A DNA stretch of 54,587 nt, taken from Reclinomonas americana ATCC 50394 (taxonomy: Eukaryota). The notes beneath the pieces are model-generated. The model was not told the DNA's origin and did no database searches. It saw only the letters and a list, made by a program, of their open reading frames with translations. Shown in pieces: positions 2,085 through 39,444 of this stretch. Location of the stretch: assembly GCA_048213135.1 (NCBI GenBank), contig PS015152.1, positions 9,807 through 64,393 on the forward strand, given 5' to 3'. Both the position numbers and the translations under genes were made by a program. Position 1 is the first letter of the stretch. Each line of letters opens with the position of its first letter.

Positions 2085-3200
2085 TCACAAGTGCGACTCC
2101 GAATCCATGTTGCGCCGAAGAAGCACAACCACCGCCTCTTCCACGATGAAGCAGCGCATCACAATCTCCGCCAAACACCAACAACCAGGCTCATCGTCCT
2201 CGCCCTCGTCAACCACACCTGCGCATGCTCGCTGCGTCTCTTGCACGGCTCGCATTGCCGTTCGTGCTGCATCAAGCTCAAACACAGCGAGGCCGCAGGG
2301 AGTGGACCACACTCGCAAAGTATTGTCGAAGCTACCACTGACAACATGCCGACCATCGGGAGACACGGCAATAGAACGCACACCTCCAGTGTGCCCCTCC
2401 AACTGTAGAACTTCTCTTCCACTGGCCAGTGACCACACTCGCACAATCGCGTCAAACACATTACCTCCACTAACAACGTGCTCACCGTCGGGGGTAACGG
2501 AGACGTGCATTATAGAATGAGTGTGTTCTTCAAACCGCCGCACTTCTTCTCCTGTCGCCATTGACCACACCCTCACAGTCTCGTCTCCACTGCAACTCAC
2601 AATGTGCTGACCATTGGGTGTAACGGCAACCGACCACACCCAATACGCGTGTCCCTCCAGTCGTCGCACTTCTGCGCCATTCTCCAGCGACCACACGCGA
2701 ACAGTCCTGTCATAGCTTCCGCAGACAACGTAGAGAGCATCCGGCGTGACGGCGACAAAATTCACTCCGCCAGTGTGGCCCTCAAACTGCCACACTTCCT
2801 GCCCCCTTGCCAGTGACCACACACGCACAGTGTCATCCCTGCTCCCGCTGATAATGTGGACCCCATCAGGAGTGATGGCAATACATTGCACTACCTCAGC
2901 GTGCCCCTTCAACAGACGCACTTCTTCTCCACTCTCCAGTGACCACACTCGCACTGAACGGTCAGAACTGCCACTCACGATGTGCTGGCCATTGGGAGTC
3001 ACGGCAACAGACAACACCATATCAGTGTGTCCCTCCAGTCGTCGCACCTCCTCTCCACTCTCAAGTGACCACACGCGCACTGTCTTGTCTTGGCTCCCGG
3101 AGATAATGTGCTGACCATTGGGAGTGATGGCGACAAACATAACAGCGCCCGTGTGACCAGTAATTCGTTTGGAGGGGAGGAGGAGGGGGGAGAGGGACAT
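2085..3200 (-). CDS. WD40 array copy 3 (371 aa)
   Basis: Intact ORF, 7 WD repeats, tail CLAEIVMRCFIVEEAVVVLLRRNMDSESHL. Confidence 0.92.
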   Translation of the reverse strand: MSLSPLLLPSKRITGHTGAVMFVAITPNGQHIISGSQDKTVRVWSLESGEEVRRLEGHTDMVLSVAVTPNGQHIVSGSSDRSVRVWSLESGEEVRLLKGHAEVVQCIAITPDGVHIISGSRDDTVRVWSLARGQEVWQFEGHTGGVNFVAVTPDALYVVCGSYDRTVRVWSLENGAEVRRLEGHAYWVWSVAVTPNGQHIVSCSGDETVRVWSMATGEEVRRFEEHTHSIMHVSVTPDGEHVVSGGNVFDAIVRVWSLASGREVLQLEGHTGGVRSIAVSPDGRHVVSGSFDNTLRVWSTPCGLAVFELDAARTAMRAVQETQRACAGVVDEGEDDEPGCWCLAEIVMRCFIVEEAVVVLLRRNMDSESHL

Positions 3201-3498
3201 GAGGAATGGAGAGAGCAGAGAGAGTGAAAGAGAAAAGAGAGAAGTGAGGGGGAACGATCAGCGCGCCGCCGGCGTGTGTTGAACTACCGGGACAGGACGA
3301 CGATGGCACTTCCTCGCGCACGACACCTGCACGCCGACTTGCAGCAGGCTTTCATCGATAGCGTCGAATGCAGGTGCAACAACTTGGCACAACACGTTCA
3401 CTGCAATGCGCTATTTCAAAGAGAAAACAAAAAGGCAACTCTTTCTTTCTTTCTCTCTTCTCATCCCTTTCTCTCTCTTCTCATCACCCTCTCTCCTC

Positions 3499-4620
3499 TC
3501 ACAAGTGCGACTCCGGGTCCACGCTGCGTCGATGTAGAACCACCGCCGCCTCCTCCACAATGAAGCACCGCAGCACAATCTCCGCCAGACACCAACAATC
3601 TGGCTCATCGTCGTCTTCATCTGCGTCGTCTACAGCTTCTCGTTGCACCTCCTGCACGGCCCGCATCGCCGCCCGCGCTGTGTAGAGCTCAAACGCAGCG
3701 AGACCACACGGAGTGGACCACACTCGCAAAGTCCTGTCATTACTGCCACTCACGACATGTCGACCATCAGCTGAGACGGCAACCGAACGCACACCTTTAG
3801 TGTGTCCCTCCAGCTGCCGCACCTCTCTTCCACTGGCCAACGACCACACTCGCACAATCGGGTCAAACACATTACCTCCACTAACAACGTGCTCACCGTC
3901 GGGGGTGACGGAGACGTGCATCAGGTTCTCATTGTGTCCTTCAAACCGCCGCACTTCTTCTCGTGTAGCCATTGACCACATTTTCATTGTCTCGGCGGAA
4001 CTGCAACTCACAATGTGCTGACCATCGGGTGTAACGGCGACAGAATTCACCCAACCTCTATGCCCGTCGAACCGGTGCACTTCGGCGACATTCTCCAGTG
4101 ACCACACGTGAACAGTCCTGTAATAGCTTCCGCTGACGACGTAGAGACCATCCGGCGTGACTGTGACAGAGTGCACCCACCAAGTGTGCCCTTCAAACTG
4201 CCACACTTCCTCTCCACTCGCCAGTGACCACACACGCACAGTGCCGTCCCTGCTCCCGCTGACAATGTGAACCCCGTCGGGAGTGATGGCAACACATTGC
4301 ACTACCTCAGCGTGTCCCTCTAACCGTCTCACTTCCACTCCACTCTCAAGTGACCACACTCGCACTGAACAGTCAGCACTGCCACTCACAATGTGCTGGC
4401 CATTGGGAGTCACGGCAACAGACAACACCATATCAGTGTGTCCCTTCAGTCGTCGCACCTCAACTCCAGTCGCCAAAGACCACACTCGCACTGTCTTGTC
4501 CCCACTTCCAGAGACGATGTGCGCGCCATCGGGGGTGATGGCGACACACCTCACAGCGTTCGTGTGACCAGTAATTCGTCCGGAGGGGAGGAGGATGAGT
4601 GGAGAGGGAGCCAGGGACAT
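3499..4620 (-). CDS. WD40 array copy 4 (373 aa)
   Basis: ATG 4620 (MSLAPSP) homologous to paralog starts; 7 WD repeats; tail ...SVDPESHL. Confidence 0.92.
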   Translation of the reverse strand: MSLAPSPLILLPSGRITGHTNAVRCVAITPDGAHIVSGSGDKTVRVWSLATGVEVRRLKGHTDMVLSVAVTPNGQHIVSGSADCSVRVWSLESGVEVRRLEGHAEVVQCVAITPDGVHIVSGSRDGTVRVWSLASGEEVWQFEGHTWWVHSVTVTPDGLYVVSGSYYRTVHVWSLENVAEVHRFDGHRGWVNSVAVTPDGQHIVSCSSAETMKMWSMATREEVRRFEGHNENLMHVSVTPDGEHVVSGGNVFDPIVRVWSLASGREVRQLEGHTKGVRSVAVSADGRHVVSGSNDRTLRVWSTPCGLAAFELYTARAAMRAVQEVQREAVDDADEDDDEPDCWCLAEIVLRCFIVEEAAVVLHRRSVDPESHL

Positions 4621-4965
4621 GAGGAAGGAAGGGGAGGGAGAGGAGATAAGGGAGCAGGGAGAGCACAGAGAGAGAGAGAGAGAGAGAGGAAACAGAGAGG
4701 CCAATCAAACTCTGGGTTCGTGTGTGTCCGCGTGTGCGCGTTGCGTGGGACCGGGACGATGGTGGACTTGGCAGCACTTCCTTGCGCATCACACCTAGAT
4801 CGCAACAGCAACCTTGACACTGCTCGCATCGAATGCAGGTGCATTCTGGATCAACAACCAGGCACATTCACTTTGGGTCATCACAAAAAACACGAAACAA
4901 CAAAACAAAATCAAGCATCTCACTCTCCAAATCTCTCTCTCTCTCTGTCTCTCGTCCCTCTCTCC

Positions 4966-6090
4966 TCACAAGTGCGACTCCGAATCCATGTTGCGCCGAA
5001 GAAGCACAACCTCCGCTTCCTCCACAATAAAACAGCGCATCACAATCTCCGCCAAACACCAACAACCAGGCTCATCGTCCTCGCCCTTGTCAACCACACC
5101 TGCGCATGCTCGCTGCGTCTCTTGCACGGCTCGCATTGCCGTTCGTGCTGCATCAAGCTCAAACGCAGCGAGGCCACACGGAGTGGACCAAACTCGCAAA
5201 GTGTTGTCGAAGCTACCACTGACAACATGCCGACCATCAGGTGAGACGGCAACAGAACGCACAAATTCAGTGTGTCCCTCCAACTGTAGCACCTCTCTTC
5301 CACTTGCCAGTGACCACACTCGCACAATCGGGTCCGCAGCATTGCCTCCACTCATAACGTGCTCACCGTCGGGGGTGACGGAGGCGAATAACAGGTTCTG
5401 AGTGTGTCCATCAAACCGCTGCACTTCTTCTCCTGTCGCCATTGACCACACTCTCACAGTCTTGTCTAAGCTGCAACTCACAATGTGCTGGCCATTGGGT
5501 GTAACGGCAACCGACCACAGCCAACTTCTATGCCCGTCCATCCAGCGCACTTCTGCACCATTCTCCAGTGACCACACCCGCACAGTCTTGTCATTGCTTC
5601 CGCTGACAACGTGGAGACCATCTGGCGTGACTGCGACAGACGTCACTCCCCCAGTGTGTCTCTCCAACCGTCTCACCTCCTGCCCACTCGCCAGTGACCA
5701 CACACGCACAGTTTTGTCACTGCCCCCGCTGACAACGAGCTGACCGTCGGGAGTGATGGCGACAGATTCCACTTCTCCAGTGTGGCCCTTCAACCGTCGC
5801 ACTTTTTCTCCACTCTCCAGTGACCACACACGCACGGTATGGTCATCACTGCCACTCACGATGTGCTGGCCATTGGGAGTGACAGCGACTGAGTTCACAT
5901 AGTGAGTGTGTCCTTTCAGTCGTCGTACCTCAGCTCCAGTCGCCAGTGACCACACGCGCACTGTCTTGTCCCCACTTCCAGAGATTATGTGCTGACCATC
6001 AGGAGTGATGGCGACACAAGTCACTGAGCCACTGTGCCCAGTGATGCGCTTGGAGGGGAGGAGGATGAGTGGAGAGGGAGCCAGGGACAT
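4966..6090 (-). CDS. WD40 array copy 5 (374 aa)
   Basis: Intact ORF, 7 WD repeats, tail ...NMDSESHL. Confidence 0.92.
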   Translation of the reverse strand: MSLAPSPLILLPSKRITGHSGSVTCVAITPDGQHIISGSGDKTVRVWSLATGAEVRRLKGHTHYVNSVAVTPNGQHIVSGSDDHTVRVWSLESGEKVRRLKGHTGEVESVAITPDGQLVVSGGSDKTVRVWSLASGQEVRRLERHTGGVTSVAVTPDGLHVVSGSNDKTVRVWSLENGAEVRWMDGHRSWLWSVAVTPNGQHIVSCSLDKTVRVWSMATGEEVQRFDGHTQNLLFASVTPDGEHVMSGGNAADPIVRVWSLASGREVLQLEGHTEFVRSVAVSPDGRHVVSGSFDNTLRVWSTPCGLAAFELDAARTAMRAVQETQRACAGVVDKGEDDEPGCWCLAEIVMRCFIVEEAEVVLLRRNMDSESHL

Positions 6091-6131
6091 GAGGAAGGAA
6101 GGGGATGGAGAGGAGATAAGAGATCAGGGAG

Positions 6132-6168
<37 letters not shown>

Positions 6169-6392: not shown

Positions 6393-7505
6393 TCACAAGT
6401 GCGACTCGGGTTCCATGCTGCGCCGGTGCAGTACCACCGCGGCCTCCTCCACAATGAAGCAGCGCAGCACCATCTCCGCCAGACACCGCGAATCCGATTC
6501 TTCATCTTCGTCAGCCACAGCTTCTCGCTGCATCTCCTGCACGGCCCGCATCGCTGCCCGTGCTGTATCAACCTCAAACGCAGCGAGGCCACAAGGAGTG
6601 GACCACACACGCAAGATCCTGTCATAACCACCACTCACAACATGCCGACCATCAGGTGAGACGGCAACAGAGCTCACATAGCCATCGTGTCCCTCCAGCT
6701 GCCGCACCTCTCTTCCACTTGCCAGTGACCACACTCGCACAATCGGGTCAGCAGCATTGCCTGCACTCACAACGTGCTCTCCGTCGGGGGTGACTGAAAC
6801 GTGAACCTTGTAATAAGTGTGTCCTTCAAACCGTCGCACTTCCTTGCCAGTAGTCATTGACCATACTCTCATAGTATGGTCTAAACTACAACTAACAATG
6901 TGCTGACTATCAGGTGTAATGGCAACCGACGGTACCCAATTATAGTGTCCTTTAAACCGGCGCACTTCAGCACCAGTCTCCAGCGACCACACCCGCACAG
7001 TCTTGTCATTGCTTCCGCTGACAACGTAGAGAGCATCCGGCGTGACGGCGACAGAGTTCACTCCGTCAGTGTGGCCCTCAAACCGCCTCACTTCCTGCCC
7101 CTTTGCCAGTGACCACACACGCACAGTTTTGTCACTGCCCCCGCTGACAACGTGCTCCCCGTCGGGAGTGATGGCAACAGATTGCACCCATCCAGTGTGT
7201 CCCTCCAACCGTCGCACTTCTGCTCCACTCTCCAGTGACCACACTCGCACTGTGTAGTCAGAACTCCCACTCACGATGTGCTGGCCATTGGGAGTGACGG
7301 CAACAGAGTTCACATAACCCTCATGTTCCTTCAGTCGTCGTACCTCAGCTCCAGTCGCCAGAGACCACACGCGCACTGTCCTGTCTTCACTCCCAGAGAT
7401 AATGCACTGACCGTCGGGAGTGACGGCGACGCACGCCACTGAGCGAGTGTGACCAGTGATGCGCTTGGTGAGTAGGAGGAAGATTGGAGAGGGAGCCAGG
7501 GACAT
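6393..7505 (-). CDS. WD40 array copy 6 (370 aa)
   Basis: ATG 7505; 7 WD repeats; tail ...SMEPESHL. Confidence 0.92.
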   Translation of the reverse strand: MSLAPSPIFLLLTKRITGHTRSVACVAVTPDGQCIISGSEDRTVRVWSLATGAEVRRLKEHEGYVNSVAVTPNGQHIVSGSSDYTVRVWSLESGAEVRRLEGHTGWVQSVAITPDGEHVVSGGSDKTVRVWSLAKGQEVRRFEGHTDGVNSVAVTPDALYVVSGSNDKTVRVWSLETGAEVRRFKGHYNWVPSVAITPDSQHIVSCSLDHTMRVWSMTTGKEVRRFEGHTYYKVHVSVTPDGEHVVSAGNAADPIVRVWSLASGREVRQLEGHDGYVSSVAVSPDGRHVVSGGYDRILRVWSTPCGLAAFEVDTARAAMRAVQEMQREAVADEDEESDSRCLAEMVLRCFIVEEAAVVLHRRSMEPESHL

Positions 7506-7841: not shown

Positions 7842-8960
7842 TCACAAGTGCGACTCCGAATCCATGTTGCGCCGAAGAAGCACAACCTCCGCTTCCTCCA
7901 AGATGAAACAGCGCATCACAATCTCCGCCAAACACCAACAACATGGCTCATCGTCCTCGCCCTAGTCAACCACACCTGCTCGCTGCATCTCCTGCACGGC
8001 CAGCATTGCCGTTCGCGCTGCGTAGAGCTCAAACGCAGCGAGGCCACACGGAGTGGACCACACTCGCAAAGTGTTGTCGAAGCTACCACTGACAACATGC
8101 CGACCATCGGGAGACACGGCAATAGAACGCACAAATTCAGTGTGTCCCTCCAACTGTAGCACCTCTCTTCCACTGGCCAGTGACCACACTCGCACAATCG
8201 GGTCCTCCCCGTTGCCTCCACTCATAACGTGCTTACCGCCGGGGGCGACGGAGACGTGCATCAGGTTCTCAGTGTGTCCTTCAAACCGCCGCACTTCTTC
8301 TCCTGTCGCCATTGACCACACTCTCACAGGCTCGTCTCCACTGCAACTCACAATGTGCTGACCATTGGGTGTAACGGCAACCGACCACACCCAATACGCG
8401 TGTCCCCCCACCCGTCGCACTTCAGCGCCATTCTCCAGTGACCACACGCGAACAGTCCTGTCATTGCTTCCGCAGACAACGTAGAGAGCATCCGGCGTGA
8501 CGGCGACAGAGTTCACTCCGCCAGTGTGGCCCTCAAACCGCCTCACTTCCTGCCCCCTCGCCAGTGACCACACACGTACAGTGTCATCCCTGCTCCCGCT
8601 GACAATGTGAACCCCGTCAGGAGTGATGGCCACACAATCCACTTCCTCTGTGTGTCCCTCCAACCGTCTCACTTCTTCTCCACTCTCCAGTGACCACACG
8701 CGCACTGAACGGTCAGCACTGGCACTCACAATGTGCTGGCCATTGGGAGTGACGGCGATTGCGTTCACATAATACGTGTGTCCCTCCAGTCGTCGCACCT
8801 CAACTCCAGTCGCCAAAGACCACACGCGCACTGTGGAGTCCGTACTCCCAGAGATAATGTGCGCACCATCGGGAGTGATGGCGACACATGTCACCGGGTC
8901 CGAGTGCCCCGTGATGCGCTTGGAGGGGAGGAGGATGAGTGGAGAGGGAGCGGTGGACAT
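7842..8960 (-). pseudogene. WD40 array copy 7 with premature TAG (7962-7964) upstream of the conserved tail motif
   Basis: Seven intact repeats; TAG where copy 3 has GAG (VVD*GEDDE). The downstream tail GEDDEPCCWCLAEIVMRCFILEEAEVVLLRRNMDSESHL is still in frame to TGA at 7842. Confidence 0.8.
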
Positions 8961-9244: not shown

Positions 9245-9805
9245 TCAATTATTGTGTCCTTCAAACCGGCGCACTTCCGCGCCATTCTCCAGTGACCACA
9301 CTCGCATAGTTTCGTCGCCACTCCCGCTAACAACGTAGAGACCATCCGGCGTGACGGCGACAGACGTCACCCATCCAGTGTGTCCCTCGAATCGCCTCAC
9401 CTCCTCTCCACTCGACAGCGACCACACACGCACGGTGTTGTCCCTGCTCCCGCTGACAGCATGCTGCCCGTCAGGAGTGATGGCAACAGACCGCACCGAC
9501 AAAGTGTGTCCCTCCAGCCGTCGCACTTCTTCTCCACTTTCCAGTGACCACACACGCACGGTATGGTCATCACAGCCACTCACGACGTGCTGCCCATCAG
9601 GAGTGACGGCGACTGAGTTCACTCCTGTAGTGTGTCCCTTCAGTCGTCGTACCTCAGCTCCAGTCCGCAGAGACCACACGCGCACTGTCTTGTCCCCACT
9701 TCCAGAGACGATGTGACGACCGTCGGGAGTGATGGCAACAAACATCACAGCGCCCGTGTGACCAGTGATGTGCTTGGAGACGAAGAGGACGGGAGAGAGG
9801 GACAT
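9245..9805 (-). pseudogene. WD40 array copy 8, truncated after 4 blades (186 aa)
   Basis: ATG 9805 (MSLSPVLFVSKHITGH); ends RRFEGHNN-TGA and runs directly into the family's usual 3' spacer sequence; blades 5-7 and tail absent. Confidence 0.8.
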
Positions 9806-9809
9806 GAGG

Positions 9810-9894
<85 letters not shown>

Positions 9895-10290: not shown

Positions 10291-11394
10291 TCACAAGTGC
10301 GACTCCGGGTCCATGCTGCGCCGGTGCAGCACCACCGCCGCCTCCTCCACAATAAAACACCGCAGCACCATCTCTGGCAGGCACCGCGAATCGTACTCGC
10401 GGTTGACAGCTCTTCGTCGAATCCCCTGTACGGCCAGCATCGCCGCCCGCGCAGCGTGGAGCTCCCGCCGCGCGAGCCCGCTGGAAGTGGACCACACACG
10501 CACGGTCCCATCAAAGCCCGCGCTTGCCACATGCTGACCATCGGGTGACGCGGCTACACATCGCACCGATCGTTCGTGTCCATCCAACTGTCGCACCTCC
10601 TCCTCCTGTCCACTCGCCAGCGACCACACTCGGACTGTCCTGTCCGTGCTGCCACTGAGAATGTGCAGACCGTCGGGAGTGACAGCAACAGTGAGCACAT
10701 GGCTAATGTGTCCCTGCAACCGTAGCACTTCTTCGCCACTCGCAAGTGACCACACAATCGCTGTGTGGTCGTCACTGCCGGAGACAATGTGCTGCCCATC
10801 GCGGGTGACGGCAACCGATCGCACCCCACACTCGTGAGCCTCCGAACGTCGCACTTCACTGCCACTAGCCAGAGACCACACTGCCAGCGTGCCCATCGGA
10901 CTCCCAATCACCAAGTGCACCCCATCGGGAGCGACGGCAAGACAATTCACTCCATACATGAAGAACTCGCGGAGCCGCAGCACCAGCTGTCCACTCTCCA
11001 GCGACCACACTCTCACCGTCTCATCAATGCTGCCGCTCACAACGCGCTGCCCGTCGAGAGTGATGGCCACCGCATTCACCTCCCCGACGTGTCCCTTCAG
11101 TATGTGCACTTTCTTCCCACTCTCCAGTGACCACACCCGCACTCTACAGTCGAAGCTGCCGCTCACCGCAAGCGCACCATCGGGAGTGATGGCGACTGAG
11201 TTCACACAACCAGTGTGTCCCTTCAGCAGACGCACTTTCTTCCCGCTCTCCAGTGACCACACACACAAAGTCTTGTCGGCACTCCCAGAGACGATGTGAC
11301 GAGCGTCGGGAGTGATGGCGAGGCACATCACTGGGCCATCGTGCCCAGTGAGGCAGTAGGAGGGAAGGAGGAGGGGAGAGGGAGAGAGGGACAT
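10291..11394 (-). CDS. WD40 array copy 9, more divergent paralog (367 aa)
   Basis: 7 WD repeats with degenerate blade 4 (EFFMYGVNCLAV...GSPMGTLAVW); tail DSRCLPEMVLRCFIVEEAAVVLHRRSMDPESHL. Confidence 0.9.
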   Translation of the reverse strand: MSLSPSPLLLPSYCLTGHDGPVMCLAITPDARHIVSGSADKTLCVWSLESGKKVRLLKGHTGCVNSVAITPDGALAVSGSFDCRVRVWSLESGKKVHILKGHVGEVNAVAITLDGQRVVSGSIDETVRVWSLESGQLVLRLREFFMYGVNCLAVAPDGVHLVIGSPMGTLAVWSLASGSEVRRSEAHECGVRSVAVTRDGQHIVSGSDDHTAIVWSLASGEEVLRLQGHISHVLTVAVTPDGLHILSGSTDRTVRVWSLASGQEEEVRQLDGHERSVRCVAASPDGQHVASAGFDGTVRVWSTSSGLARRELHAARAAMLAVQGIRRRAVNREYDSRCLPEMVLRCFIVEEAAVVLHRRSMDPESHL

Positions 11395-11636: not shown

Positions 11637-11940
11637 TTACAAGTGCGGCTCTGGGTCCATGCTGCGCCGGTGCAGCACAAGCGCCGCTTCCTCCACAATG
11701 AAGCACCGCAACACCAATTCTGGCAGACACTGCGCATCTGATTCTTCATCGTCGTCAACAATCTCTACACGCTGCATCTCCTGCACGGCTCGCATTGCCT
11801 CGCGTGCTGCGCCCAACTCACACGCAGCGAGACCACACGGAGTGGACCACACACGCAAGATCCTGTCATAACCACCACTCACAACATGCCAACCGTCGGG
11901 AGTCACGGCAACAGCGCGCACATATCCATCGTGTCCCTCG
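11637..11940 (-). CDS. WD40 array copy 10, 3' part (blade 7 plus tail), cut by a gap
   Basis: EGHDGYVRAVAVTPDGWHVVSGGYDRILRVW...CLPELVLRCFIVEEAALVLHRRSMDPEPHL-TAA. Confidence 0.85.
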
Positions 11941-12016
11941 NNNNNNNNNNNNNNNNNNNNCCCCCTCTCTCTCTCCTTGCCCTTCTCTCCCTCTGCTCTC
12001 CTTCCCTCCCCTGATC

Positions 12017-12825
12017 ATGTCCCTCACTCCCTCTCCCCTCACTCTCCTCCCCTCCAAGCGCATCACGGGGCACTCGGACTCGGTGACATGTGTCGCCATC
12101 ACTCCCGATGGTGCGCACATTATCTCTGGGAGTACGGACTCCACAGTGCGCGTGTGGTCTTTGGCGACTGGAGTTGAGGTGCGACGACTGGAGGGACACA
12201 CTTTTTATGTGACCGCTGTTGCCGTGACTCCCGATGGGCAGCACATCGTGAGTGGCGGCTTCGACTGTTCAGTGCGAGTGTGGTCACTGGAGAGTGGAGA
12301 AGAAGTGCGACGGCTGGAGAGACACACTGCGGGAGTGAAATCTGTGGCCATCACTCCCGACGGGGTGCACATTGTCAGCGGGGGCAGAGACAAGATAATG
12401 ATTGTGTGGTCACTGGCGAGGGGGAAGGAGGTGAGACGACTGGTGGGACACACTTGGTGGGTGAACTCTGTCGCCGTCACGCCGGACGGTCTCCACGTTG
12501 TCAGCGGGAGTGGCGACAAGTGGATGCTGGTGTGGTCACTGGAGAATTGCGCTGTAGTGCGACACATGAAGGGACATAGAGGTCGGGTGCTTTCTGTCTC
12601 CGTTACACCCGATGGTCAGCACGTCGTGAGTTGCAGTGACGACAGGACTATGAGAGTGTGGTCAATGACGACTGGCAAGGAAGTGCGACGGTTTGACGGA
12701 AACACTCGTGACAAGGTGCACGTCTCTGTCACCCCCGACGGCAAGCACGTTGTAAGTGGGGGCAACGCTTCTGACCCAGTTGTTCGAGTGTGGTCGCTGG
12801 CAAGTGGGAGAGAGGTGCGACAGCT
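12017..12825 (+). CDS. WD40 array copy 10, 5' part (blades 1-6), on an apparently inverted contig
   Basis: ATG 12017 (MSLTPSP); six repeats ending ...GAG GTG CGA CAG CT at the gap; joins in frame to the 11637-11940 fragment. Confidence 0.85.
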
Positions 12826-12957
12826 NNNNNNNNNNNNNNNNNNNNACTCACTCACTCACTCACTCACTCACTCACTCACTCAGTCACTCACACTCACTCA
12901 CTCACTCACTCACACACACACACACACTCCCTCACTCTCTCTCTCTCTCAACGCAAC

Positions 12958-13022
12958 AAGTTCCGCGCCGCGCGGATCTCCTCCAGCTTGGCCTGCAGCT
13001 CCGGGATCAGTTGTTGCGCCAT
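12958..13022 (-). CDS. Probable first exon of the NAD+ synthetase gene (displaced in the scaffold)
   Basis: ATG 13022: MAQQLIPELQAKLEEIRAARN+TT, then donor GTTGCGT; resembles from memory the N-terminus (LxPxLQxxLxxxRxxRNF) of short protist NAD synthetases. Confidence 0.65.
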
Positions 13023-13332
13023 AGTGATCACAAAAAAAAAGTAAAGGACAAAAAACCATGCAATTGCAACCCGCCCTTCTCTCGTAAAATCGCGCGTTCT
13101 CGATGCCAACGCATGCGCAACGCATGCGGTGAGTGTTTTCTGATGCGCGACTCGCGGGCGCGTTGAATGGATCTAGGCATGACTGTTGCAACCGCTCGTG
13201 ACGCGTGAGATACATTGATTTAGAGGTGGAAAAGTTGCGTTGTTTTGCTGTCGCGTGTGCGCGGTGTTGCAGTGTGTGTATGTGTGTGTGTGGCGCAGTG
13301 TAGAGCGTTGATGGAGGAGTCTGTACCACCAT

Positions 13333-13344
13333 CGTCCTGGTCCC
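13333..13344 (+). promoter_or_regulatory. Conserved upstream motif CGTCCTGGTCCC of the WD40 family (representative copy)
   Basis: Near-identical motif precedes most paralog ATGs: 1907, 3289, 4747, 6209, 7621, 10092 and 11451 on minus; 33293, 34652, 36755 and 38141 on plus. Confidence 0.55.
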
Positions 13345-13488
13345 GCTGCGCGTCTTCAAACACACATCGACGTGGCGAGCAGATTGTTCCACCTCACTTC
13401 TCTCTTTTCTCTCTCTCTCTCCCTATCTCTGCTCTCTCTCTCTCTCCTTGCCCTTCTCTCCCTCTGCTCTCCTTCCCCTTCCTTTCTC

Positions 13489-14610
13489 ATGTCCACTACT
13501 CCCTCTCCCCTCACTCTCCTCCCCTCCAAGCGCATCACTGGTCACAGTGGCTCAGTGACTTGTGTCGCCATCACTCCCGATGGCGCGCACATTATCTCTG
13601 GGAGTACGGACTCCACAGTGCGCGTGTGGTCACTTGAGAGTGGAGCCGAGGTACGACGACTGGAAGGGCATGTGGGCTATGTGATCTCAGTCGCTGTCAC
13701 TCCCAATGGCCAGCACATCGTGAGTGGCAGTTCTGACCATACGGTGCGAGTGTGGTCACTGGAGAGTGGAGAAGAAGTGCGACGGTTGAAGGGACACACT
13801 GGATGGGTGCTTGCTGTTGCCGTCACTCCCGACGCGGTTCACACTGTCAGCGGGAGCAAGGACTACATCGTGCGTGTGTGGTCGCTGGCGAGTGGAGAGG
13901 AGGTGAGGCGATTCGAGGGCCACACTAGGGAAGTGTGGTCTGTCGCCATCACGCCGGATGGTCTCCACGTTGTCAGCGGAAGCAATGACAAGACTGTTCG
14001 CGTGTGGTCACTGGAGAATGGCGCAGAAGTGCGACGGCTGGTGGGACACGCGTATTGGGTGTGGTCGGTTGCCATTGCACCCGATGAACAGCACGTTGTG
14101 AGTTGCAGTGGAGACGGGACTGTGAGAGTGTGGTCAATGGCGACAGGAGAAGAAGTGCGTCGGTTTCAAGGACACACACACACTGTGATTCACGTCTCCG
14201 TCACCCCCGACGGTAAACACGTTATGATTGGAGGCAACGCTGCTGACCCGATTGTGCGAGTGTGGTCACTGGCAAGCGGAAGAGAGGTGCGACAGCTGGA
14301 GTGGCACTCTGGAGGTGTGCGCTCTGTTGCCATCTCACCTGATGGTCGGCATGTTGTGAGTGGTAGTTATGACAGAACTGTACGAGTGTGGTCCACTCCG
14401 TGTGGTCTCGCTGCCTGTGAGTTGGGCGCAGCACGCGAGGCGATGCGAGCTGTGCAGGAGATGCTACGAGAAGCTGCGGTTGACGAGGGCGAGGACGACG
14501 ATGAGCTGGATTGTTGGTGTCTGGCGGAGATTGTGCTGCGGTGCTTCATCGTGGAGGAGGCGGCGCTTGTGCTGCACCGGCGCAGCGTGGACCCGGAGTC
14601 ACACTTGTGA
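13489..14610 (+). CDS. WD40 family copy 11 (373 aa)
   Basis: ATG 13489 (MSTTPSP); 7 repeats; tail CLAEIVLRCFIVEEAALVLHRRSVDPESHL. Confidence 0.92.
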   Translation: MSTTPSPLTLLPSKRITGHSGSVTCVAITPDGAHIISGSTDSTVRVWSLESGAEVRRLEGHVGYVISVAVTPNGQHIVSGSSDHTVRVWSLESGEEVRRLKGHTGWVLAVAVTPDAVHTVSGSKDYIVRVWSLASGEEVRRFEGHTREVWSVAITPDGLHVVSGSNDKTVRVWSLENGAEVRRLVGHAYWVWSVAIAPDEQHVVSCSGDGTVRVWSMATGEEVRRFQGHTHTVIHVSVTPDGKHVMIGGNAADPIVRVWSLASGREVRQLEWHSGGVRSVAISPDGRHVVSGSYDRTVRVWSTPCGLAACELGAAREAMRAVQEMLREAAVDEGEDDDELDCWCLAEIVLRCFIVEEAALVLHRRSVDPESHL

Positions 14611-16690: not shown

Positions 16691-16853
16691 ACCAAACCAT
16701 TGTTATTGTGTTTGGCGCATGATCTCGGGGGCAGCTTTACTGAGGGTAGGGGATAATCGGGGGTGGGGGTTGACAACAGCGGTGTTGAGTCCTCCTGGAA
16801 AAGAAGGAGACAGACAGCCACCGTACAAGAGACTCGGGAGAGAGTCTCCGGGG

Positions 16854-23838: not shown

Positions 23839-23882
<44 letters not shown>

Positions 23883-24607: not shown

Positions 24608-25734
24608 ATGGCCATGAAGGTAATACATCGACTTTGCTTTGTCGCTGACGCATTGTTTTCTTAAGCAAGGCGTTCTTTTGAAGCAAGGTTCTGCGAGGCC
24701 ACACAGGTGGGGTGTATGCAGTGGCTGTGACACCCGATGGCCAACACATTGTGAGTGGCAGTGGGGACCGTACTGTACGGGTGTGGTCGCTGGCAAGTGG
24801 CGAGGAGGTGCAACGACTGACTGGCAGCTTGAACACGAGTTGGGTGTGGGCGGTGGCAGTGACACCCGATGGGCAACACATCGTGAGTGGCGGTGGGGAC
24901 CGTACTGTACGCGTATGGTCGCTGGCAAGTGGCGGCGAGGTGCGCCGACTGAAAGGCCACACGAATCAGGTGAATGCAGTGGCCGTGACACCCGATGGCC
25001 AGTGCATTGTTAGTGGCAGTGGGGACCGGACAGTACGGGTTTGGTCGCTGGCAAGTGGGGAAGAGGTGCGCCGACTGACTGGTGATTTGGTCACGGGTTG
25101 GGCGAATGCAGTGGCAGTGACACCCGATGGGCAGCACATTGTTAGTGGCAGTTATGACAATACTGTACGGGTGTGGTCGGTGGCAAGTGGCGAGGAGGTG
25201 CGCCAAATGAAAGGCCACACGGTAGGGGTGCACGCAGTGGCAGTGACACCCGATGGCCAGCACATTGTGAGTGGCAGTTGGGACAGGACTGTACGAGTGT
25301 GGTCGCTGGCCAGCGGCGTGGAGGTGCTCCGACTGGAAGGCCACGCAGCTGTGGAAGCAGTAGCAGTGACACCCGATGGCCAGCACATTGTGAGTGGCAG
25401 TAGGGACAATACTGTACGGGTGTGGTCACTGGCAAGCGGCGAGGAGGTGCGACGATTGGAAGGCCACACTGGTAGAGTGTGTGCAATGGCAGTGACACCC
25501 GATGGCCAGCACATTGTCAGTGGCAGTGAAGACAAGACTGTGCGGGTGTGGCCCACGACGCGCGGTCATGCACATGCCGAGCTGCAGGCCGCCACCGCGG
25601 CCCACCACGCCATACTCGAGAGCCAGCCAGCGAGTGATGCTGTCGGCGACCAGCGATGTCTCGTGGAGATTGTGCTGCGGTGCTTCATCAGCGAGGATGC
25701 GAGAGTCGTGCTCTTCCGTTCCCCAATCTTTTGA
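24608..25734 (+). CDS. WD40 family relative with highly homogenised repeats; likely micro-exon 24608-24619 (MAMK) plus exon 24688-25734
   Basis: An in-frame TGA at 24679 requires splicing (GTAATA...AAG intron 24620-24687); seven near-identical AVAVTPDGQHIVSGSxDxTVRVWSLASG repeats; tail CLVEIVLRCFISEDARVVLFR. Confidence 0.85.
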
Positions 25735-31541: not shown

Positions 31542-31599
<58 letters not shown>

Positions 31600-33400: not shown

Positions 33401-34492
33401 ATGTCCCTCGCTCCCTCTCCTCCCATCCTCCTCCCCTCCAAGCGCATCACCGGTCACACGGGCCCGGTGACGTGTGTCGCCATCACTCCCAATGGTCAGC
33501 GCATCATCTCTGGGAGTGCAGACAAGACAGTGCGCGTGTGGTCACTTGAGAGTGGAGAGGAGATGCGACGACTGGAGGGACACACTAAAGGAGTGAACGC
33601 TGTTGCCGTCACTCCCAATGGCCAGCACATCGTGAGTGGCAGCTTCGACCGGACGCTGCGTGTGTGGTCACTGGAGAGTGGAGGAAAAGTGCGACGGTTG
33701 AAGGGGCACGCTGAGGTAGTGGAATCTGTTACCATCACTCCCGACGGGGAGCTCGTTGTGAGTGGCAGCGTCGATGACACCGTGCGTGTGTGGTCACTGG
33801 CGAGTGGAGAGGAGGTACAACGAATCGAGGAGCACACTGGGGGAGTGAACTCTGTCGCCGTCACGCCAGATGGTCAGCATGTTGTTAGTGGCAGCTGGGA
33901 CAAGACTGTTCGCGTGTGGTCACTGGAGAATGGCGCCGAAGTGCGCCGGCTGGAGGGTCACAAAGGTGGGGTGCTTTCTGCTGCTGTTACACCCGATGGT
34001 CAGCACGTTGTGAGTTGCAGTCACGACGGGACCGTGAGAGTGTGGTCAACGGCGACAGGAGAAGAAGTGCGTCGGTTTGAAGGACACACTTACACTATGA
34101 TTCACGTCTCCGTCACCCCCGACGGTGAGCACGTCGTAAGTGGAGGCAACTTTGCTGACCCGATTGTGCGAGTGTGGTCATTGGCCAGTGGAAGAGAGGT
34201 GCGACAGCTGGAGGGGCACACTGGAGGTGTGCGCTCTGTTGCCATCTCACCTGATGGTCAACATGTCGTGAGTGGTAGTTATGACAATACTTTGCGAGTG
34301 TGGTCCACTCAGTGTGGCCTCGCTGCGCTTGAGCTCTACACAGCGCGGGCGGCGATGCGGGCTGTGCAGGAGGTGCTGCGAGAAGAAGCGGATTCGCGGT
34401 GTCTGCCAGAGATGGTGCTGCGGTGCTTCATTGTGGAGGAGGCGGCGGTGGTGCTGCATCGGCGCAGGATTGATCCCGAGTCGCACTTGTGA
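33401..34492 (+). CDS. WD40 second array copy A (363 aa)
   Basis: 7 repeats; short linker; tail DSRCLPEMVLRCFIVEEAAVVLHRRRIDPESHL. Confidence 0.92.
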   Translation: MSLAPSPPILLPSKRITGHTGPVTCVAITPNGQRIISGSADKTVRVWSLESGEEMRRLEGHTKGVNAVAVTPNGQHIVSGSFDRTLRVWSLESGGKVRRLKGHAEVVESVTITPDGELVVSGSVDDTVRVWSLASGEEVQRIEEHTGGVNSVAVTPDGQHVVSGSWDKTVRVWSLENGAEVRRLEGHKGGVLSAAVTPDGQHVVSCSHDGTVRVWSTATGEEVRRFEGHTYTMIHVSVTPDGEHVVSGGNFADPIVRVWSLASGREVRQLEGHTGGVRSVAISPDGQHVVSGSYDNTLRVWSTQCGLAALELYTARAAMRAVQEVLREEADSRCLPEMVLRCFIVEEAAVVLHRRRIDPESHL

Positions 34493-34769: not shown

Positions 34770-35882
34770 ATGTCCTCCGCTCCCTCTCCACTCATCCTCG
34801 TCCCCTCCAAGCGCACCACCGGTCACACGGGCGCTGTGATGTGCGTCGCCATCACTCCCGATGGTCAGCACGTCGTCAGTGGGGGTTCTGATCATTCAGT
34901 GCGTGTGTGCTCTTTGGCAACTGAAGCTGAGGTGCGACGACTGGAGGGACACACTGGTTGTGTGAACTCAGTCGTCGTCACTCCCGATGGACAACACATC
35001 GTAAGTGGCAGTGCTGACCGTACAGTGCGCGTGTGGTCACTGGAGAGTGGAGCAGAAGTGAGACGGCTGGAGGGACACACTGGATGGGTGCAATCTGTTG
35101 CCATCACTCCCGACGGGGAGCTCGTTGTCAGCGGGAGCAGGGACAACACCGTGCGTGTGTGGTCACTGGCGAGTGGGCAGGAGGTGCGACGAATGGAGGA
35201 GCACACCAGGGAAGTGAACTCTGTTGCCATCACGCCGGATGGTCTCTACGTCGTCAGCGGAAGCCATGACAAGACTGTGCGGGTGTGGTCACTGGAGACT
35301 GGCGCTGAAGTGCGACGGCTGAAAGGACACGAAGGTTGGGTGCTGTCGGTTGCCATTACACCCGATAGTCAGCACATTGTGAGTTGCAGTTATGACGGGA
35401 CCATGAGAGTGTGGTCAATGACGACTGGCAAGGAAGTACGACAATTTGATGGACACAGACATAGCAAGATTCACGTCTCCGTCACACCGGACGGTGAGCA
35501 CGTAATAAGTGGAGGTAATTTGTATGATCCGGTTGTGCGAGTGTGGTCACTGGCAAGTGGAAGAGAGGTGCTACAGCTTGAGGGACACACTGGAGGTGTG
35601 CGCGCTGTGGCCGTGACTCCCGATGGTTTGCATGTTGTGAGTGGTAGTTATGACACGACTTTGCGAGTGTGGTCCACTCCCTGCGGCCTCGCTGCGTTTG
35701 AGGTTGATACAGCACGAGCGGCGATGCGGGCTGTGCAGGAGATGCTGCGAGAATCAGTTGTTGACGAAGATGAAGAAGCGGATTCGCGGTGTTTGCCAGA
35801 GATGGTGCTGCGGTGCTTCATTGTGGAGGAGGCGGCGGTTGTACTGCACCGGCACAGCATGGATCCAGAGTCGCACTTGTGA
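34770..35882 (+). CDS. WD40 second array copy B (370 aa)
   Basis: ATG 34770 (MSSAPSP); 7 repeats; conserved tail. Confidence 0.92.
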   Translation: MSSAPSPLILVPSKRTTGHTGAVMCVAITPDGQHVVSGGSDHSVRVCSLATEAEVRRLEGHTGCVNSVVVTPDGQHIVSGSADRTVRVWSLESGAEVRRLEGHTGWVQSVAITPDGELVVSGSRDNTVRVWSLASGQEVRRMEEHTREVNSVAITPDGLYVVSGSHDKTVRVWSLETGAEVRRLKGHEGWVLSVAITPDSQHIVSCSYDGTMRVWSMTTGKEVRQFDGHRHSKIHVSVTPDGEHVISGGNLYDPVVRVWSLASGREVLQLEGHTGGVRAVAVTPDGLHVVSGSYDTTLRVWSTPCGLAAFEVDTARAAMRAVQEMLRESVVDEDEEADSRCLPEMVLRCFIVEEAAVVLHRHSMDPESHL

Positions 35883-36852: not shown

Positions 36853-37959
36853 ATGTCCACCACTCCCTCTCCCCTCACTCTCCTCCCCTCCAAGCGCATC
36901 ACGGGTCACAGTTTTCTTGTGATGTGCGTCGCCATCACTCCCAATGGTGAGCACATCATCTCTGGGAGTACAGACAAGACTGTGCGAGTGTGGTCCCTGG
37001 CCACTGGAGCTGAGGTGCGACGACTGGAGGGACACGCGCTTCAAGTGCACTCTGTCGCCGTGACTCCCAATGGCCAGCACATCGTGAGTGGTAGCTTCGA
37101 CCGGACGCTGCGAGTGTGGTCGCTGGAGAGTGGAGAAGGCGTGCGTCTGTTGAAGGGGCACGCTGAGGTAGTGCAATGTGTTGCCATCACTCCCGATGGG
37201 GAGCACGTTGTCAGCGGGAGTTGGGATGCGACAGTGCGTGTGTGGTCGCTGGCGTCGGGGCAGGAGGTACGACGAATGGAGGAGCACACCAGGGAAGTGA
37301 ACTCTGTCGCCATCACGCCGGATGGTCTCTACGTCGTCAGCGGAAGCCATGACAAGACAGTGCGGGTGTGGTCACTGGAGACTGGCGCTGAAGTGCGACG
37401 GCTGAAAGGACACGAAGGTTGGGTGCTGTCGGTTGCCATTACACCCGATAGTCAGCACATTGTGAGTTGCAGTTATGACGGGACCATGAGAGTGTGGTCA
37501 ATGACGGCTGGCAAGGAAGTACGACAATTTGATGGACACAGACATAGCAAGATTCACGTCTCCGTCACACCGGACGGTGAGCACGTAATAAGTGGAGGTA
37601 ATTTGTATGATCCGGTTGTGCGAGTGTGGTCACTGGCAAGTGGAAGAGAGGTGCTACAGCTTGAGGGACACACTGGAGGTGTGCGCGCTGTGGCCGTGAC
37701 TCCCGATGGTTTGCATGTTGTGAGTGGTAGTTATGACACGACTTTGCGAGTGTGGTCCACTCCCTGCGGCCTCGCTGCGTTTGAGGTTGATACAGCACGA
37801 GCGGCGATGCGGGCTGTGCAGGAGATGCAGCGAGGAGCTGTCGTGGATGAAGAAGCAGATTCACGGTGCCTGCCAGAGATGGTGCTGCGGTGCTTCATTG
37901 TGGAGGAAGCGACGGCTGTGCTGTACCGGCGCAGCATTGATCCCGAGTCGCACTTGTGA
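36853..37959 (+). CDS. WD40 second array copy C (368 aa)
   Basis: ATG 36853 (MSTTPSP); 7 repeats; conserved tail. Confidence 0.92.
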   Translation: MSTTPSPLTLLPSKRITGHSFLVMCVAITPNGEHIISGSTDKTVRVWSLATGAEVRRLEGHALQVHSVAVTPNGQHIVSGSFDRTLRVWSLESGEGVRLLKGHAEVVQCVAITPDGEHVVSGSWDATVRVWSLASGQEVRRMEEHTREVNSVAITPDGLYVVSGSHDKTVRVWSLETGAEVRRLKGHEGWVLSVAITPDSQHIVSCSYDGTMRVWSMTAGKEVRQFDGHRHSKIHVSVTPDGEHVISGGNLYDPVVRVWSLASGREVLQLEGHTGGVRAVAVTPDGLHVVSGSYDTTLRVWSTPCGLAAFEVDTARAAMRAVQEMQRGAVVDEEADSRCLPEMVLRCFIVEEATAVLYRRSIDPESHL

Positions 37960-38186
37960 AAAGGGAGAGGATGATGAGAGAAGGAGAATTCTAGGAAGAG
38001 TTGTTTTTTTGTATTTTGTCCATTCTTTTCGCGATAGCTCAATGCAGTGAACGTGTTGTGCCTGGTTGTTGATCCACAGTGCACCTGCATTCGATGCAAG
38101 GCTGCTGATGCGATACAGGGCACAACGAAGTGCCCAAGTTCGTCCTGGACCCACAAACACACTCACAGGCAAACAAGCACGCACAC

Positions 38187-38240
<54 letters not shown>

Positions 38241-38328
38241 TACATACATACACACGCCACACACACGAGCTCGCATCGCAGAATTGATTGTTGCTTCTCT
38301 CTGTTCTCCTCTCTCTCCTCTCCCCATC

Positions 38329-39444
38329 ATGTCCCTCGCTCCCTCTCCACTCATCCTCCTCCCCTCCAAGCGCATCACTGGTCACACGGGTCCCGTGCCT
38401 TGCGTCGCCATCACTCCCAATGGTGAGCACATTGTATCTGGGAGTACGGACTACACAGTGCGAGTGTGGTCTCTGGCGACTGGAGCTGAGGTACGACGAC
38501 TGAAGGGACATGAGGGTTATGTGTTATCTGTTGCCGTCGCTCCCAATGGCCAGCACATCGTGAGTGCCAGTGCTGACCGTACGGTGCGAGTGTGGTCACT
38601 TGAGAGTGGAGCAGAAGTGAGACGGTTGGAGGGGCACACTGATGTAGTGGAATCTGTTGCCATCACTCCCGACGGGGATCACATAATAAGCGGGAGTTGG
38701 GATGCGACAGTGCGTGTGTGGTCACTGGCGAGGGGGCAGGAGTTGAGGCGATTCGGGGGCCACACCAGTGAAGTGAACACTGTCGCCGTCACGCCAGATG
38801 GTCTCTACGTTGTCAGCGGAAGCAATGACAGGACTGTTCGCGTGTGGTCACTGGAGAATGGCGCAGAAGTGCGACGGCTGAAGGGACACAAAGGCTGGGT
38901 GCTGTCGGTTGCCATTGCACCCGATGGTCGGCACATTGTGAGTTGCTGTACCAGTTCTGTGCGAGTGTGGTCAATGACGTCTGGCAAGGAAGTGCAACGG
39001 TTTGAAGGACACACTCGTGACAAGATGCACGTCTCCGTCACCCCCGACGGTAAGCACGTTATGAGTGGAGGCAACGGATGTGACCCAATTGTGCGAGTGT
39101 GGTCACTGGCAAGTGGAAGAGAGCTGCAACAGTTGAAGGGACACGATGGATACGTGGGCTCTGTTGCCGTGACTCGCGATGGTCGGCATGTTGTGAGTGG
39201 TAGTTATGACAGGACTTTGCGAGTGTGGTCCACTCCTTGTGGCCTCGCTGCGTGTGAGGTTGATACAGCGCGGGCGGCGATGCGGGCCGTGCAGGAGATG
39301 CAGCGAGCAGGTGTGGTTGACGAGGGCGAGGACGATGAGCCAGGTTGTTGGTGTTTGGCGGAGATTGTGATGCGCTGTTTTATTGTGGAGGAAGCGGCGG
39401 TGGTACTGCACCGGCGCACCATGGAACCCGAGTCGCACTTGTGA
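38329..39444 (+). CDS. WD40 second array copy D (371 aa)
   Basis: ATG 38329 (MSLAPSP); 7 repeats; tail CLAEIVMRCFIVEEAAVVLHRRTMEPESHL. Confidence 0.92.
   Translation: MSLAPSPLILLPSKRITGHTGPVPCVAITPNGEHIVSGSTDYTVRVWSLATGAEVRRLKGHEGYVLSVAVAPNGQHIVSASADRTVRVWSLESGAEVRRLEGHTDVVESVAITPDGDHIISGSWDATVRVWSLARGQELRRFGGHTSEVNTVAVTPDGLYVVSGSNDRTVRVWSLENGAEVRRLKGHKGWVLSVAIAPDGRHIVSCCTSSVRVWSMTSGKEVQRFEGHTRDKMHVSVTPDGKHVMSGGNGCDPIVRVWSLASGRELQQLKGHDGYVGSVAVTRDGRHVVSGSYDRTLRVWSTPCGLAACEVDTARAAMRAVQEMQRAGVVDEGEDDEPGCWCLAEIVMRCFIVEEAAVVLHRRTMEPESHL

What the first reader, a model, noticed from the sequence alone, without database searches (positions are those of the whole stretch)
2085..39444. Blade-level patchwork between paralogs, including across the two opposed arrays
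Seen: nearest neighbours change from blade to blade. GHAYWVWSVA (blade 5) is in copies 3, 7 and 11. GHTDMVLSV (blade 2) is in 3 and 4. GHAEVV (blade 3) is in 3, 4, A and C. GHTGWVQSVAITPDGE is in 6 and B. GHTEFVRS (blade 7) is in 5 and 7. GHSGSVTC is in 5 and 11. HEGYV is in 6 and D. SGSFDRTLRVW is in A and C. Blade identity is kept (VSC in blade 5, SGGN plus a 2-aa insertion in blade 6), so exchange is in register. Inference: segmental gene conversion shuffles specificity loops combinatorially.
Basis: partly seen in the sequence, partly recalled or inferred. Interest (0 to 1): 0.75.

Follow-up and report, generated by a model that had tools for sequence, protein, structure and literature searches.

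The report
Patch-swapping WD40 propeller gene library
Neighbouring genes for ring-shaped WD40 binding proteins in a protist are mosaics of short DNA patches shared between copies at matching positions, so each copy has a different binding face; this is likely produced by gene conversion plus selection and likely serves a recognition repertoire whose targets are unknown.

Summary
The patchwork is real. All eight motifs are present and shared at DNA level. Site incompatibility rises with distance, and no-recombination simulations stay flat. Blade trees conflict more than in controls (41 of 42 rejected against 5-26). There are three corrections. Patches are loop-sized (tens of bases), not blade-sized. 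Exchange is gene-wide, framework and tail included, not aimed at loops. Copies 10 and 11 only look reversed: their contigs are flipped in the scaffold. Exchange is almost wholly in register and confined to this subfamily. The second haplotype is assembled separately. There, the gene at copy 11's position is 80% identical inside flanks of 96-98%, and the allele of copy C differs in patches. Five positions per blade diverge about 2.4 times faster than silent sites; four match the HET-E selected codons. It works like fungal HNWD sensors and plant NLR or MHC conversion, but it is not an HNWD. No reads could be checked; targets and tail function are unknown. The scan noted this family and its patch-swapping before, on other DNA of this genome.

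The parts
3..452 (-). copy 1, divergent WD40 gene cut by the window start
   Evidence: 49% aa to copy D
718..1830 (-). copy 2: intronless 7-blade WD40 + two-helix tail; allele fragment on C11242 differs in patches (60 of 69 mismatches)
2085..3200 (-). copy 3
3499..4620 (-). copy 4
4966..6090 (-). copy 5
6393..7505 (-). copy 6
7842..8960 (-). copy 7, with a premature TAG in the tail linker (7962-7964); its allele on C8040 is intact, 97% identical, and closer to copy 5 in blade 7 and the tail
9245..9805 (-). copy 8, truncated in blade 5 by a deletion of about 550 nt at a 2-nt microhomology; the allele on C8040 is whole, with blades 1-2 like copies 3/4
10291..11394 (-). copy 9, divergent member (about 70% nt to the others), without the special blades 5/6; left out of the recombination tests
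11637..11940 (-). copy 10, 3' part
12017..12825 (+). copy 10, 5' part on a contig flipped by the scaffolder; joins the 3' part in frame
13489..14610 (+). copy 11, on a flipped contig, really the first gene of the left array; the gene at the same position on C9422 is only 80.4% identical, with flanks of 96-98%
24682..25731 (+). copy X, other subfamily: more uniform repeats (85% nt among the 3 scored), closer to the NLR repeats, shortened tail
33401..34492 (+). copy A
34770..35882 (+). copy B; shares a 475-nt block with copy C (1 mismatch, alignment columns 514-988)
36853..37959 (+). copy C; allele on C3002 is 94.4% identical with 54 of 62 mismatches in patches
38329..39444 (+). copy D (modelled: 7-blade propeller, residues 11-301, then two helices)
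39229..39441 (+). conserved two-helix tail (example in copy D), no known family
1831..2084 (.). example of the homologous non-coding spacer (about 240-470 nt) between copies; the repeat unit is gene plus spacer, about 1.45 kb

Best explanation
These are tandem, intronless genes for a seven-blade WD40 propeller with a constant two-helix tail, and they are mosaics of short same-position patches, likely made by ordinary homology-dependent gene conversion between about 80%-identical neighbours, with selection likely keeping new combinations on the binding face, so that the array likely works as a library of binders for foreign or fast-changing partners. SHOWN: mosaic structure; patches of tens of bases; in-register exchange; confinement to this subfamily; haplotype differences in patches and in gene content; accelerated amino-acid change at five positions per blade. 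INFERRED: conversion as the main route, with occasional unequal crossing-over, deletion and gene loss. Register is probably kept simply because same-position blades are 78-82% identical and other positions 56-70%. Also inferred: the variable positions form the top face, the tail docks every member onto one shared partner, and the role is immune-like recognition.
For: Incompatibility rises from 0.30 (3-9 nt) to 0.55 (21-40 nt) to 0.67 (over 400 nt). The near/far ratio is 0.54, against at least 0.94 in 90 simulations with site-specific rates and base repertoires. The decay holds with the loops removed and in the tail alone (p=0.0005 each). AU rejections: 41 of 42, against 5-26 in 20 simulations. 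Synonymous identity is raised only 1-4 codons from a shared loop (0.885-0.915 against 0.74) and is at background by 5-10 codons in the window set. A GENECONV-like scan gives 7 fragments in 6 of 55 window pairs and 22 in 20 of 378 pairs, median about 75 nt. In-register runs of 30 nt or more: 194; cross-register: 0. With other arrays 1 of 27,027 repeat pairs, with NLRs 0 of 17,160. Haplotypes: single-copy ankyrin CDS 97.8%; copy 11 position 80.4% inside flanks of 96-98%; mismatch clustering P=0.001 for copy C and 0.004 for copy 7. Top-face second codon positions differ at 0.47-0.50, against 0.26 at framework fourfold sites; corrected ratio 2.3-2.5, CI 1.7-3.2; framework second positions 0.08. 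The same five positions are picked independently from two sets of blades and recur in other arrays and in the genome's NACHT-WD40 genes. Four have the spacing of HET-E codons 7, 9, 25, 27 (PMC1805685, passages).
Against: Strict synonymous-only PHI is not significant. Nei-Gojobori dS inside the variable codons (0.84-0.99) exceeds their dN (0.69-0.77). A pathway-free count lowers that silent value to 0.32-0.35, which leaves a ratio nearer 1.7 by my arithmetic. Exact donors were found for only a minority of allelic patches, for example 2 of 7 for copy C. The assembly is fragmented and has flipped contigs, and allelic pairing rests on flanks and contig order. No codon-model test that allows for recombination was run. 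Nothing here shows expression, a ligand or an immune role.
Confidence: 0.7

Rival explanations
1. The mosaics are assembly chimeras of a short-read, two-haplotype assembly of similar genes.
For: 16,441 contigs. Contigs are flipped inside the arrays. The window has 4 genes where the other haplotype has about 9-10. B and C share 475 nt with 1 mismatch next to a gap. Short-read assembly of near-identical WD40 repeats is a stated concern (PMC12222747, passages).
Against: Most shared patches are 30-80 nt and come from many different partners per gene. Median pairwise identity is about 0.81. The decay of linkage is smooth. The B/C block is mostly present in the separately assembled allele of C too (0.97-1.00 to both over several 63-nt windows). 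The copy 8 junction has only a 2-nt microhomology.
Confidence: 0.07
2. Shared motifs are convergent: selection draws repeatedly from a limited set of residues at fast sites, without exchange.
For: The variable sites are nearly saturated, the gene tree is star-like (internal branches 15% of its length), and strict synonymous PHI is not significant.
Against: Motifs share codons (6 mismatches in 369 nt). Flanking silent sites follow the shared loop. The signal stays with loops removed and in the tail. Simulations with restricted site repertoires give no decay.
Confidence: 0.03
3. The exchange is real but is a neutral by-product of tandem arrangement. The loops vary through relaxed constraint, and the proteins are adaptors for cellular (self) partners or are partly redundant.
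For: Exchange is gene-wide and falls with distance. Broken copies are common: copies 7 and 8, and frameshifted genes on C8040, C2998, C3001 and C3002. Same-codon dS is high by one method.
Against: Relaxed sites should not exceed silent sites, yet they do by 1.7-3.2 times. The framework and tail are under purifying selection (dN about 0.10-0.13 against dS 0.37-0.51). The same sites vary in the NLR-like genes.
Confidence: 0.15
4. A dedicated, possibly somatic or inducible, diversification process shuffles these genes faster than ordinary recombination, in the manner of antibody gene conversion.
For: The whole coding region at copy 11's position differs between haplotypes while the spacers on both sides are 96-99% identical. 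Patches are short.
Against: No loop targeting. No single-base bias at variable codons (all four bases are common). No donor-pseudogene or expression-site layout was seen. Long accumulation of ordinary conversion under selection explains the same pattern.
Confidence: 0.08

Closest known systems
WD40 sensor domains of the Podospora anserina NWD/HNWD NLRs (HET-D, HET-E, HET-R); PMC1805685, PMC2873952, PMC12222747, PMC13449251 (passages read)
   Same: Same selected positions (two pairs flanking a conserved residue in the d-a loop and the b-c turn), sequence exchange that makes new combinations, sub-repeat conversion (an 88-nt patch in PMC2873952), pseudogenes in the family.
   Different: No HET or NACHT domain: a stand-alone single propeller with a tail of no known family. 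Repeats within a gene are only 64% aa / 67% nt identical (HNWD 80-100%). Exchange is between genes and in register, whereas in HNWD intragenic, out-of-register rearrangement with repeat gain and loss dominates. Repeat number is almost fixed at seven.
Intergenic gene conversion in plant NLR families (Arabidopsis RPP8; PMC6771003, passages) and in MHC genes (PMC12431779, passages)
   Same: Paralogs exchange short tracts at matching positions, gene trees differ along the gene, haplotypes differ in content, and selection acts on ligand-contact residues (the last point for MHC and LRRs partly recalled).
   Different: Different fold; a unicellular eukaryote; small intronless genes in very large numbers; no signalling domain on the same chain; function untested.
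NACHT-pentapeptide-WD40 NLR-like genes of the same genome (144 of 144 scored matches, both haplotypes)
   Same: Same repeat consensus and same five variable positions; 65% aa identity between repeats.
   Different: Carry a P-loop NTPase and pentapeptide repeats and have many more repeats. Their C-terminus does not match the tail (best E 0.04 among 19 genes), and there is no recent exchange with this array (0 of 17,160 repeat pairs).
WD40 + SOCS/BC-box or F-box substrate receptors of cullin ligases (WSB type; motifs recalled)
   Same: Variable propeller plus a constant short helical tail with an L-x-E-hydrophobic motif; Elongin C, Skp1 and cullins are in the genome.
   Different: No SOCS-box or F-box Pfam match in 40 tails. 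The tail has Val where the recalled BC-box has Cys/Ala, and lacks the F-box LP spacing.

Membership tests
HNWD/NWD NLR family | NACHT domain and N-terminal effector domain on the same chain | tested here: not met
   ORFs start about 17 aa before the first GH and end about 70 aa after blade 7; only WD40-type Pfam families in the best 25 shown
HNWD/NWD NLR family | High internal conservation of repeats (80-100%) | tested here: not met
   within-gene repeat identity 64% aa, 67% nt; threshold from PMC13449251
HNWD/NWD NLR family | Four codons per repeat under diversifying selection (7, 9, 25, 27) | tested here: met
   positions +4, +6, +22, +24 from the G of GH have the same spacing, plus +3; ratio to silent sites 2.3-2.5; counting methods only
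HNWD/NWD NLR family | Repeats evolve in concert regardless of position, with repeat gain and loss | tested here: not met
   0 cross-register runs of 30 nt or more; 4 of 209 blades nearest to another position; one 6-blade gene on C2997
HNWD/NWD NLR family | Triggers cell death on non-self recognition | not testable with these tools
   needs experiments
Multigene recognition clusters diversified by intergenic conversion (plant NLR, MHC type) | Tandem paralogs with region-specific trees and short shared tracts | tested here: met
Multigene recognition clusters diversified by intergenic conversion (plant NLR, MHC type) | Haplotypes differ in gene content and allelic sequence far above background; birth and death of copies | tested here: met
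   (two haplotypes only; pairing by flanks)
Multigene recognition clusters diversified by intergenic conversion (plant NLR, MHC type) | Products recognise foreign ligands | not testable with these tools
   no ligand known
WD40-SOCS/BC-box or F-box substrate receptors | Recognisable SOCS-box, BC-box or F-box | tested here: not met
   no such Pfam family for any of 40 tails at E up to 10; no PDB sequence or fold match at E up to 0.001; divergent boxes can be missed
WD40-SOCS/BC-box or F-box substrate receptors | Adaptor and cullin genes present in the organism | tested here: met
   Elongin C, Skp1 exon and 14 cullin C-terminal matches

The most novel reading that the evidence does not exclude
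A single-celled eukaryote keeps an antibody-like library: hundreds of stand-alone WD40 'variable heads' on one constant tail. Their 14 binding loops are reassorted by in-register micro-conversion fast enough to change within clonal lineages, and the new tail domain plugs every binder into one shared defence or degradation effector.
Probability: 0.12. Interest if true: 0.85.

Novelty: new variant of a known kind. Interest (0 to 1): 0.5.

Why it matters
Conversion plus selection on WD40 top-face residues is known from fungal NLRs, and in-register patch exchange from plant NLR and MHC clusters. What differs here is a very large set of sensor-only propellers with position-specific blades, which exchange loop-sized patches between genes and can replace a whole coding region between two haplotypes. 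If they are receptors, they give a testable model of how a unicellular eukaryote generates recognition diversity, and a natural library of binding faces on one scaffold. The constant tail is an undescribed domain whose partner would reveal the pathway.

Tried and rejected
Sequencing runs: none was listed, so no reads were laid and no RNA holder was listed. Complex prediction of the tail with the genome's Elongin C (read through an in-frame intron, folded without alignments): no verdict. Tail searches: ESM Atlas no usable hit; word-indexed search of residues 285-371 gave one unrelated WD40 protein; PDB sequence search one chance hit; Pfam nothing consistent; Foldseek nothing at E up to 0.001. 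The representative search gave 3 hits: one near-identical family member and two divergent propellers with the same tail, both unnamed. Homology of the tail to the BC-box-like end of the neighbouring ankyrin protein: not supported (probability 0.1%). Homology to the NLR C-terminus: not supported. A second gene in the spacers: rejected, frames not kept (output partly cut). Synonymous-only PHI: not significant. The first AU test (54 of 56) had no control and overstates; the controlled version is. A templated, adenine-type mutagenesis: no base bias seen. Organism placement: the rRNA search found only a bacterial operon on C1 and the Elongin C search found nothing; 'jakobid' comes from an earlier scan note and was not tested. 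Literature: searches listed no paper describing such a stand-alone WD40 array in a protist; only listings were seen, and subscription papers and supplements were not searched.
Full report
WHAT IS THERE. The window is from an intron-rich eukaryote (G000, 108 Mb, 16,441 contigs). It holds 15 copies of an intronless gene of about 370 aa, in units of about 1.45 kb with a homologous non-coding spacer, plus one member of another subfamily (X, 24682-25731). The model of copy D is a seven-blade WD40 propeller (pLDDT mostly above 90) followed by two helices, with TM about 0.97 to symmetric 7-blade propellers. The family is large: 109 of 110 scored candidates matched the whole protein (3,478 candidates), and 150 of 150 scored matched the tail alone (1,512 candidates). 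These are lower bounds and include both haplotypes. About 38 matches at 67% identity or more lie on C143, C144 and a few small contigs. Tests used the 11 close, full-length window copies (2-7, 11, A-D), and sets of 28 or 25 genes from 30 extracted. Copy 9 and a 6-blade gene were left out; three near-duplicates were also dropped for the set of 25. Several full-length copies were missed by my start pattern.

THE OBSERVATION. Background codon identity of about 0.77 would give roughly 25, by my arithmetic. Nearest neighbours switch between blades. PHI on all informative sites gives p=0.0005, but on strictly synonymous sites of invariant columns it is not significant (37 sites, p=0.15; 32 sites, p=0.29). 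Rate heterogeneity can mimic recombination, so I simulated on the whole-gene tree with site rates kept in place and with restricted base repertoires. Observed incompatibility climbs from 0.30 at 3-9 nt to 0.55 at 21-40 nt and 0.67 beyond 400 nt, while 90 simulations are flat. Runs of 40 identical nt or more number 30, against means of 1.8-3.4. Blade-sized segments reject each other's trees in 41 of 42 cases, against 5-26 in 20 simulations. A GENECONV-like scan finds 7 fragments in 6 of 55 window pairs and 22 in 20 of 378 pairs, 44-382 nt, median about 75 nt.

SIZE AND TARGET OF EXCHANGE. Where two genes share a loop, silent identity is raised 1-4 codons away (0.885-0.915 against 0.74) and is back to background by 5-10 codons in the window set. 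In the 28-gene set a small excess lasts further. Neighbouring loops about 55-65 nt apart stay only partly linked (0.18 against 0.07), whether in the same blade or the next. So the unit is a loop-sized patch, not a blade. The same decay appears with all loops removed and in the tail alone (p=0.0005 each), so exchange is gene-wide. Among 25 genes each of the 14 loop cassettes has 10-17 variants; a gene shares 9.9 cassettes with some other gene but only 4.5 with any one gene.

REGISTER AND REACH. Identical runs of 30 nt or more number 194 between same-position blades and 0 between different positions (about 2,590 and 16,464 pairs by my arithmetic). Same-position blades are 78-82% identical and others 56-70%, which is enough to explain the register by homology dependence (inference). 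Rare slips exist: a gene on C2997 lacks exactly one blade, and two genes outside the window have a blade 6 of another type. Exchange falls with distance: 19 runs of 40 nt or more in 21 left-left pairs, 7 in 28 left-right pairs, and 0 in 5 right-right pairs apart from B/C. It is nearly absent with other arrays (1 of 27,027 repeat pairs) and with the NLR-like genes (0 of 17,160).

THE 'OPPOSED ARRAYS'. The contig holding the 5' half of copy 10 joins the 3' half in frame when reversed, and the spacer after copy 11 leads into copy 10. A NAD-synthetase-like gene (name recalled from its motifs) begins on copy 11's contig and continues at the far end of the next contig. So three contigs are flipped in place and copies 1-11 are one head-to-tail array. 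An RCC1-like gene appears to link the flipped block to the contig at 20051, which would leave A-D truly opposite; this link is weaker. Flipped fragments also occur in C143.

HAPLOTYPES. Single-copy genes occur twice in the assembly, and contigs C2994-C2996, C3002 and C3003 match the window from 20051 onward in order. The allelic ankyrin CDS is 97.8% identical. In contrast, the gene at copy 11's position on C9422 is 80.4% identical, no closer than a random paralog, between flanks of 96% and 98%. Copy C and its allele are 94.4% identical, with 54 of 62 mismatches in patches (P=0.001). Copy 7's allele is 97% identical and is closer to copy 5 in blade 7 and the tail; copy 8's allele has blades 1-2 like copies 3/4. 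Exact donors were found for only some patches (2 of 7 for C). Gene content differs too: about 9-10 genes stand where the window has A-D plus a gap; copy 8 is truncated at a 2-nt microhomology and copy 7 has a premature stop, while their alleles are whole.

ASSEMBLY ARTEFACT. No reads could be examined. Collapse could explain a long block such as B/C (475 nt, 1 mismatch), although the separately assembled allele of C carries most of it. It does not easily explain dozens of 30-80 nt patches from many partners among genes only about 81% identical. I give it 7%.

SELECTION. In every blade the variation sits at +3, +4, +6, +22 and +24 from the G of GH. The same five are picked from either half of the blades, and recur in 186 repeats from other arrays (3.4-3.8 bits) and 120 NLR repeats. 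In the model these lie in the loop before strand a, at the start of strand a, and in the b-c turn. Four have the spacing of HET-E codons 7, 9, 25 and 27, which PMC1805685 places on the top face (passages). Second codon positions there differ at 0.47-0.50, against 0.26 at framework fourfold sites (ratio 2.3-2.5, CI 1.7-3.2), while framework second positions differ at 0.08. Against this, Nei-Gojobori dS within those codons is 0.84-0.99, above their dN of 0.69-0.77. The pathway-free silent value there is 0.32-0.35, so I read the high dS as mostly a counting effect, with a true excess nearer 1.7.

HOW IT LIKELY WORKS. Tandem copies mispair at matching positions and short conversion tracts copy patches between them. 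Occasional unequal crossing-over and deletion change copy number and kill copies. Purifying selection keeps the frame and tail, and diversifying selection keeps new faces. The result is a set of binders with different faces and one handle. An immune-like role is inferred from the selection pattern and from the same repeat type serving in at least 144 NACHT-pentapeptide-WD40 matches in this genome. The tail is a two-helix module of no known family, found in two unnamed divergent propellers elsewhere. A cullin-adaptor box is conceivable but fails the sequence tests.

COMPARISON AND NOVELTY. It works like the HNWD sensor domain but is not an HNWD: no NACHT, no high internal conservation, and exchange that is between genes and in register. 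In HNWD, intragenic rearrangement dominates (PMC2873952, PMC12222747, PMC13449251; passages). Its mode of exchange is closer to RPP8 and MHC conversion (PMC6771003, PMC12431779; passages). Searches listed no description of such an array in a protist. Earlier scan notes report the family, its variable face, its tail and patch-swapping on other pieces of this genome. They are unchecked AI notes and are not counted as support; one judged another array old and stable, and one did not find strong selection in its ten genes. This report adds the tract scale, the controlled tests, the haplotype evidence and the scaffold correction. Verdict: real, a new variant of a known kind, interest 0.5.

Noticed in passing
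window 11961-12825, 12846-14889, 15286-20030: Three contigs are flipped in place by the scaffolder; a NAD-synthetase-like gene and copy 10 are broken across the false joins.
   Followed up: yes
L063 (G000:C8038) 2530-5592 - and L074-L093: Large family of NACHT-like P-loop + pentapeptide + WD40 NLR-like genes (144 of 144 scored matches, mostly 77-90% identical in the central part) with the same repeat type and variable positions as the array.
   Followed up: partly
window 25875-26696 -: Single-copy ankyrin-repeat protein ending in a BC-box-like motif (LAELCRRVL; resemblance recalled); the allele on C2995 carries an extra partial copy of this end.
   Followed up: partly
window 24682-25731 +: Copy X: more uniform repeats, closer to the NLR repeats than to the array, shortened tail; no counterpart was found on the allelic contig C2995.
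   Followed up: partly
L006 (G000:C8040) 570-1906 +: Family member broken by an insertion of roughly 200 nt with short internal repeats in blade 4, and by frameshifts; small 'GIR' insertions in two blades.
   Followed up: no
L012 (G000:C2997) 2546-3529 +: Six-blade member lacking exactly one repeat, with blade 1 like copy B.
   Followed up: partly
L050 (G000:C1) 1-3026: Bacterial rRNA operon in the assembly: contaminant, prey or symbiont.
   Followed up: no
L037 1492-1872 +: Divergent Elongin C gene with a 63-nt in-frame intron; 14 cullin C-terminal matches occur mostly in haplotype pairs.
   Followed up: partly
G000:C143 47988-72408 and C144 99-5511: The array continues on C143 and upstream on C144 with more than 20 further copies or fragments; C143:64503-65602 and C144:1-1101 are 94% identical.
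   Followed up: partly
window 41198-41968 +, 43900-44270 +, 51326-52244 +: An unrelated intron-containing WD40 gene region, and a long Ala/Val/Pro/Glu 27-nt tandem-repeat ORF.
   Followed up: no
P0004, P0005: Unnamed proteins from public assemblies with divergent propellers and the same two-helix tail, so the tail is older than this expansion.
   Followed up: partly
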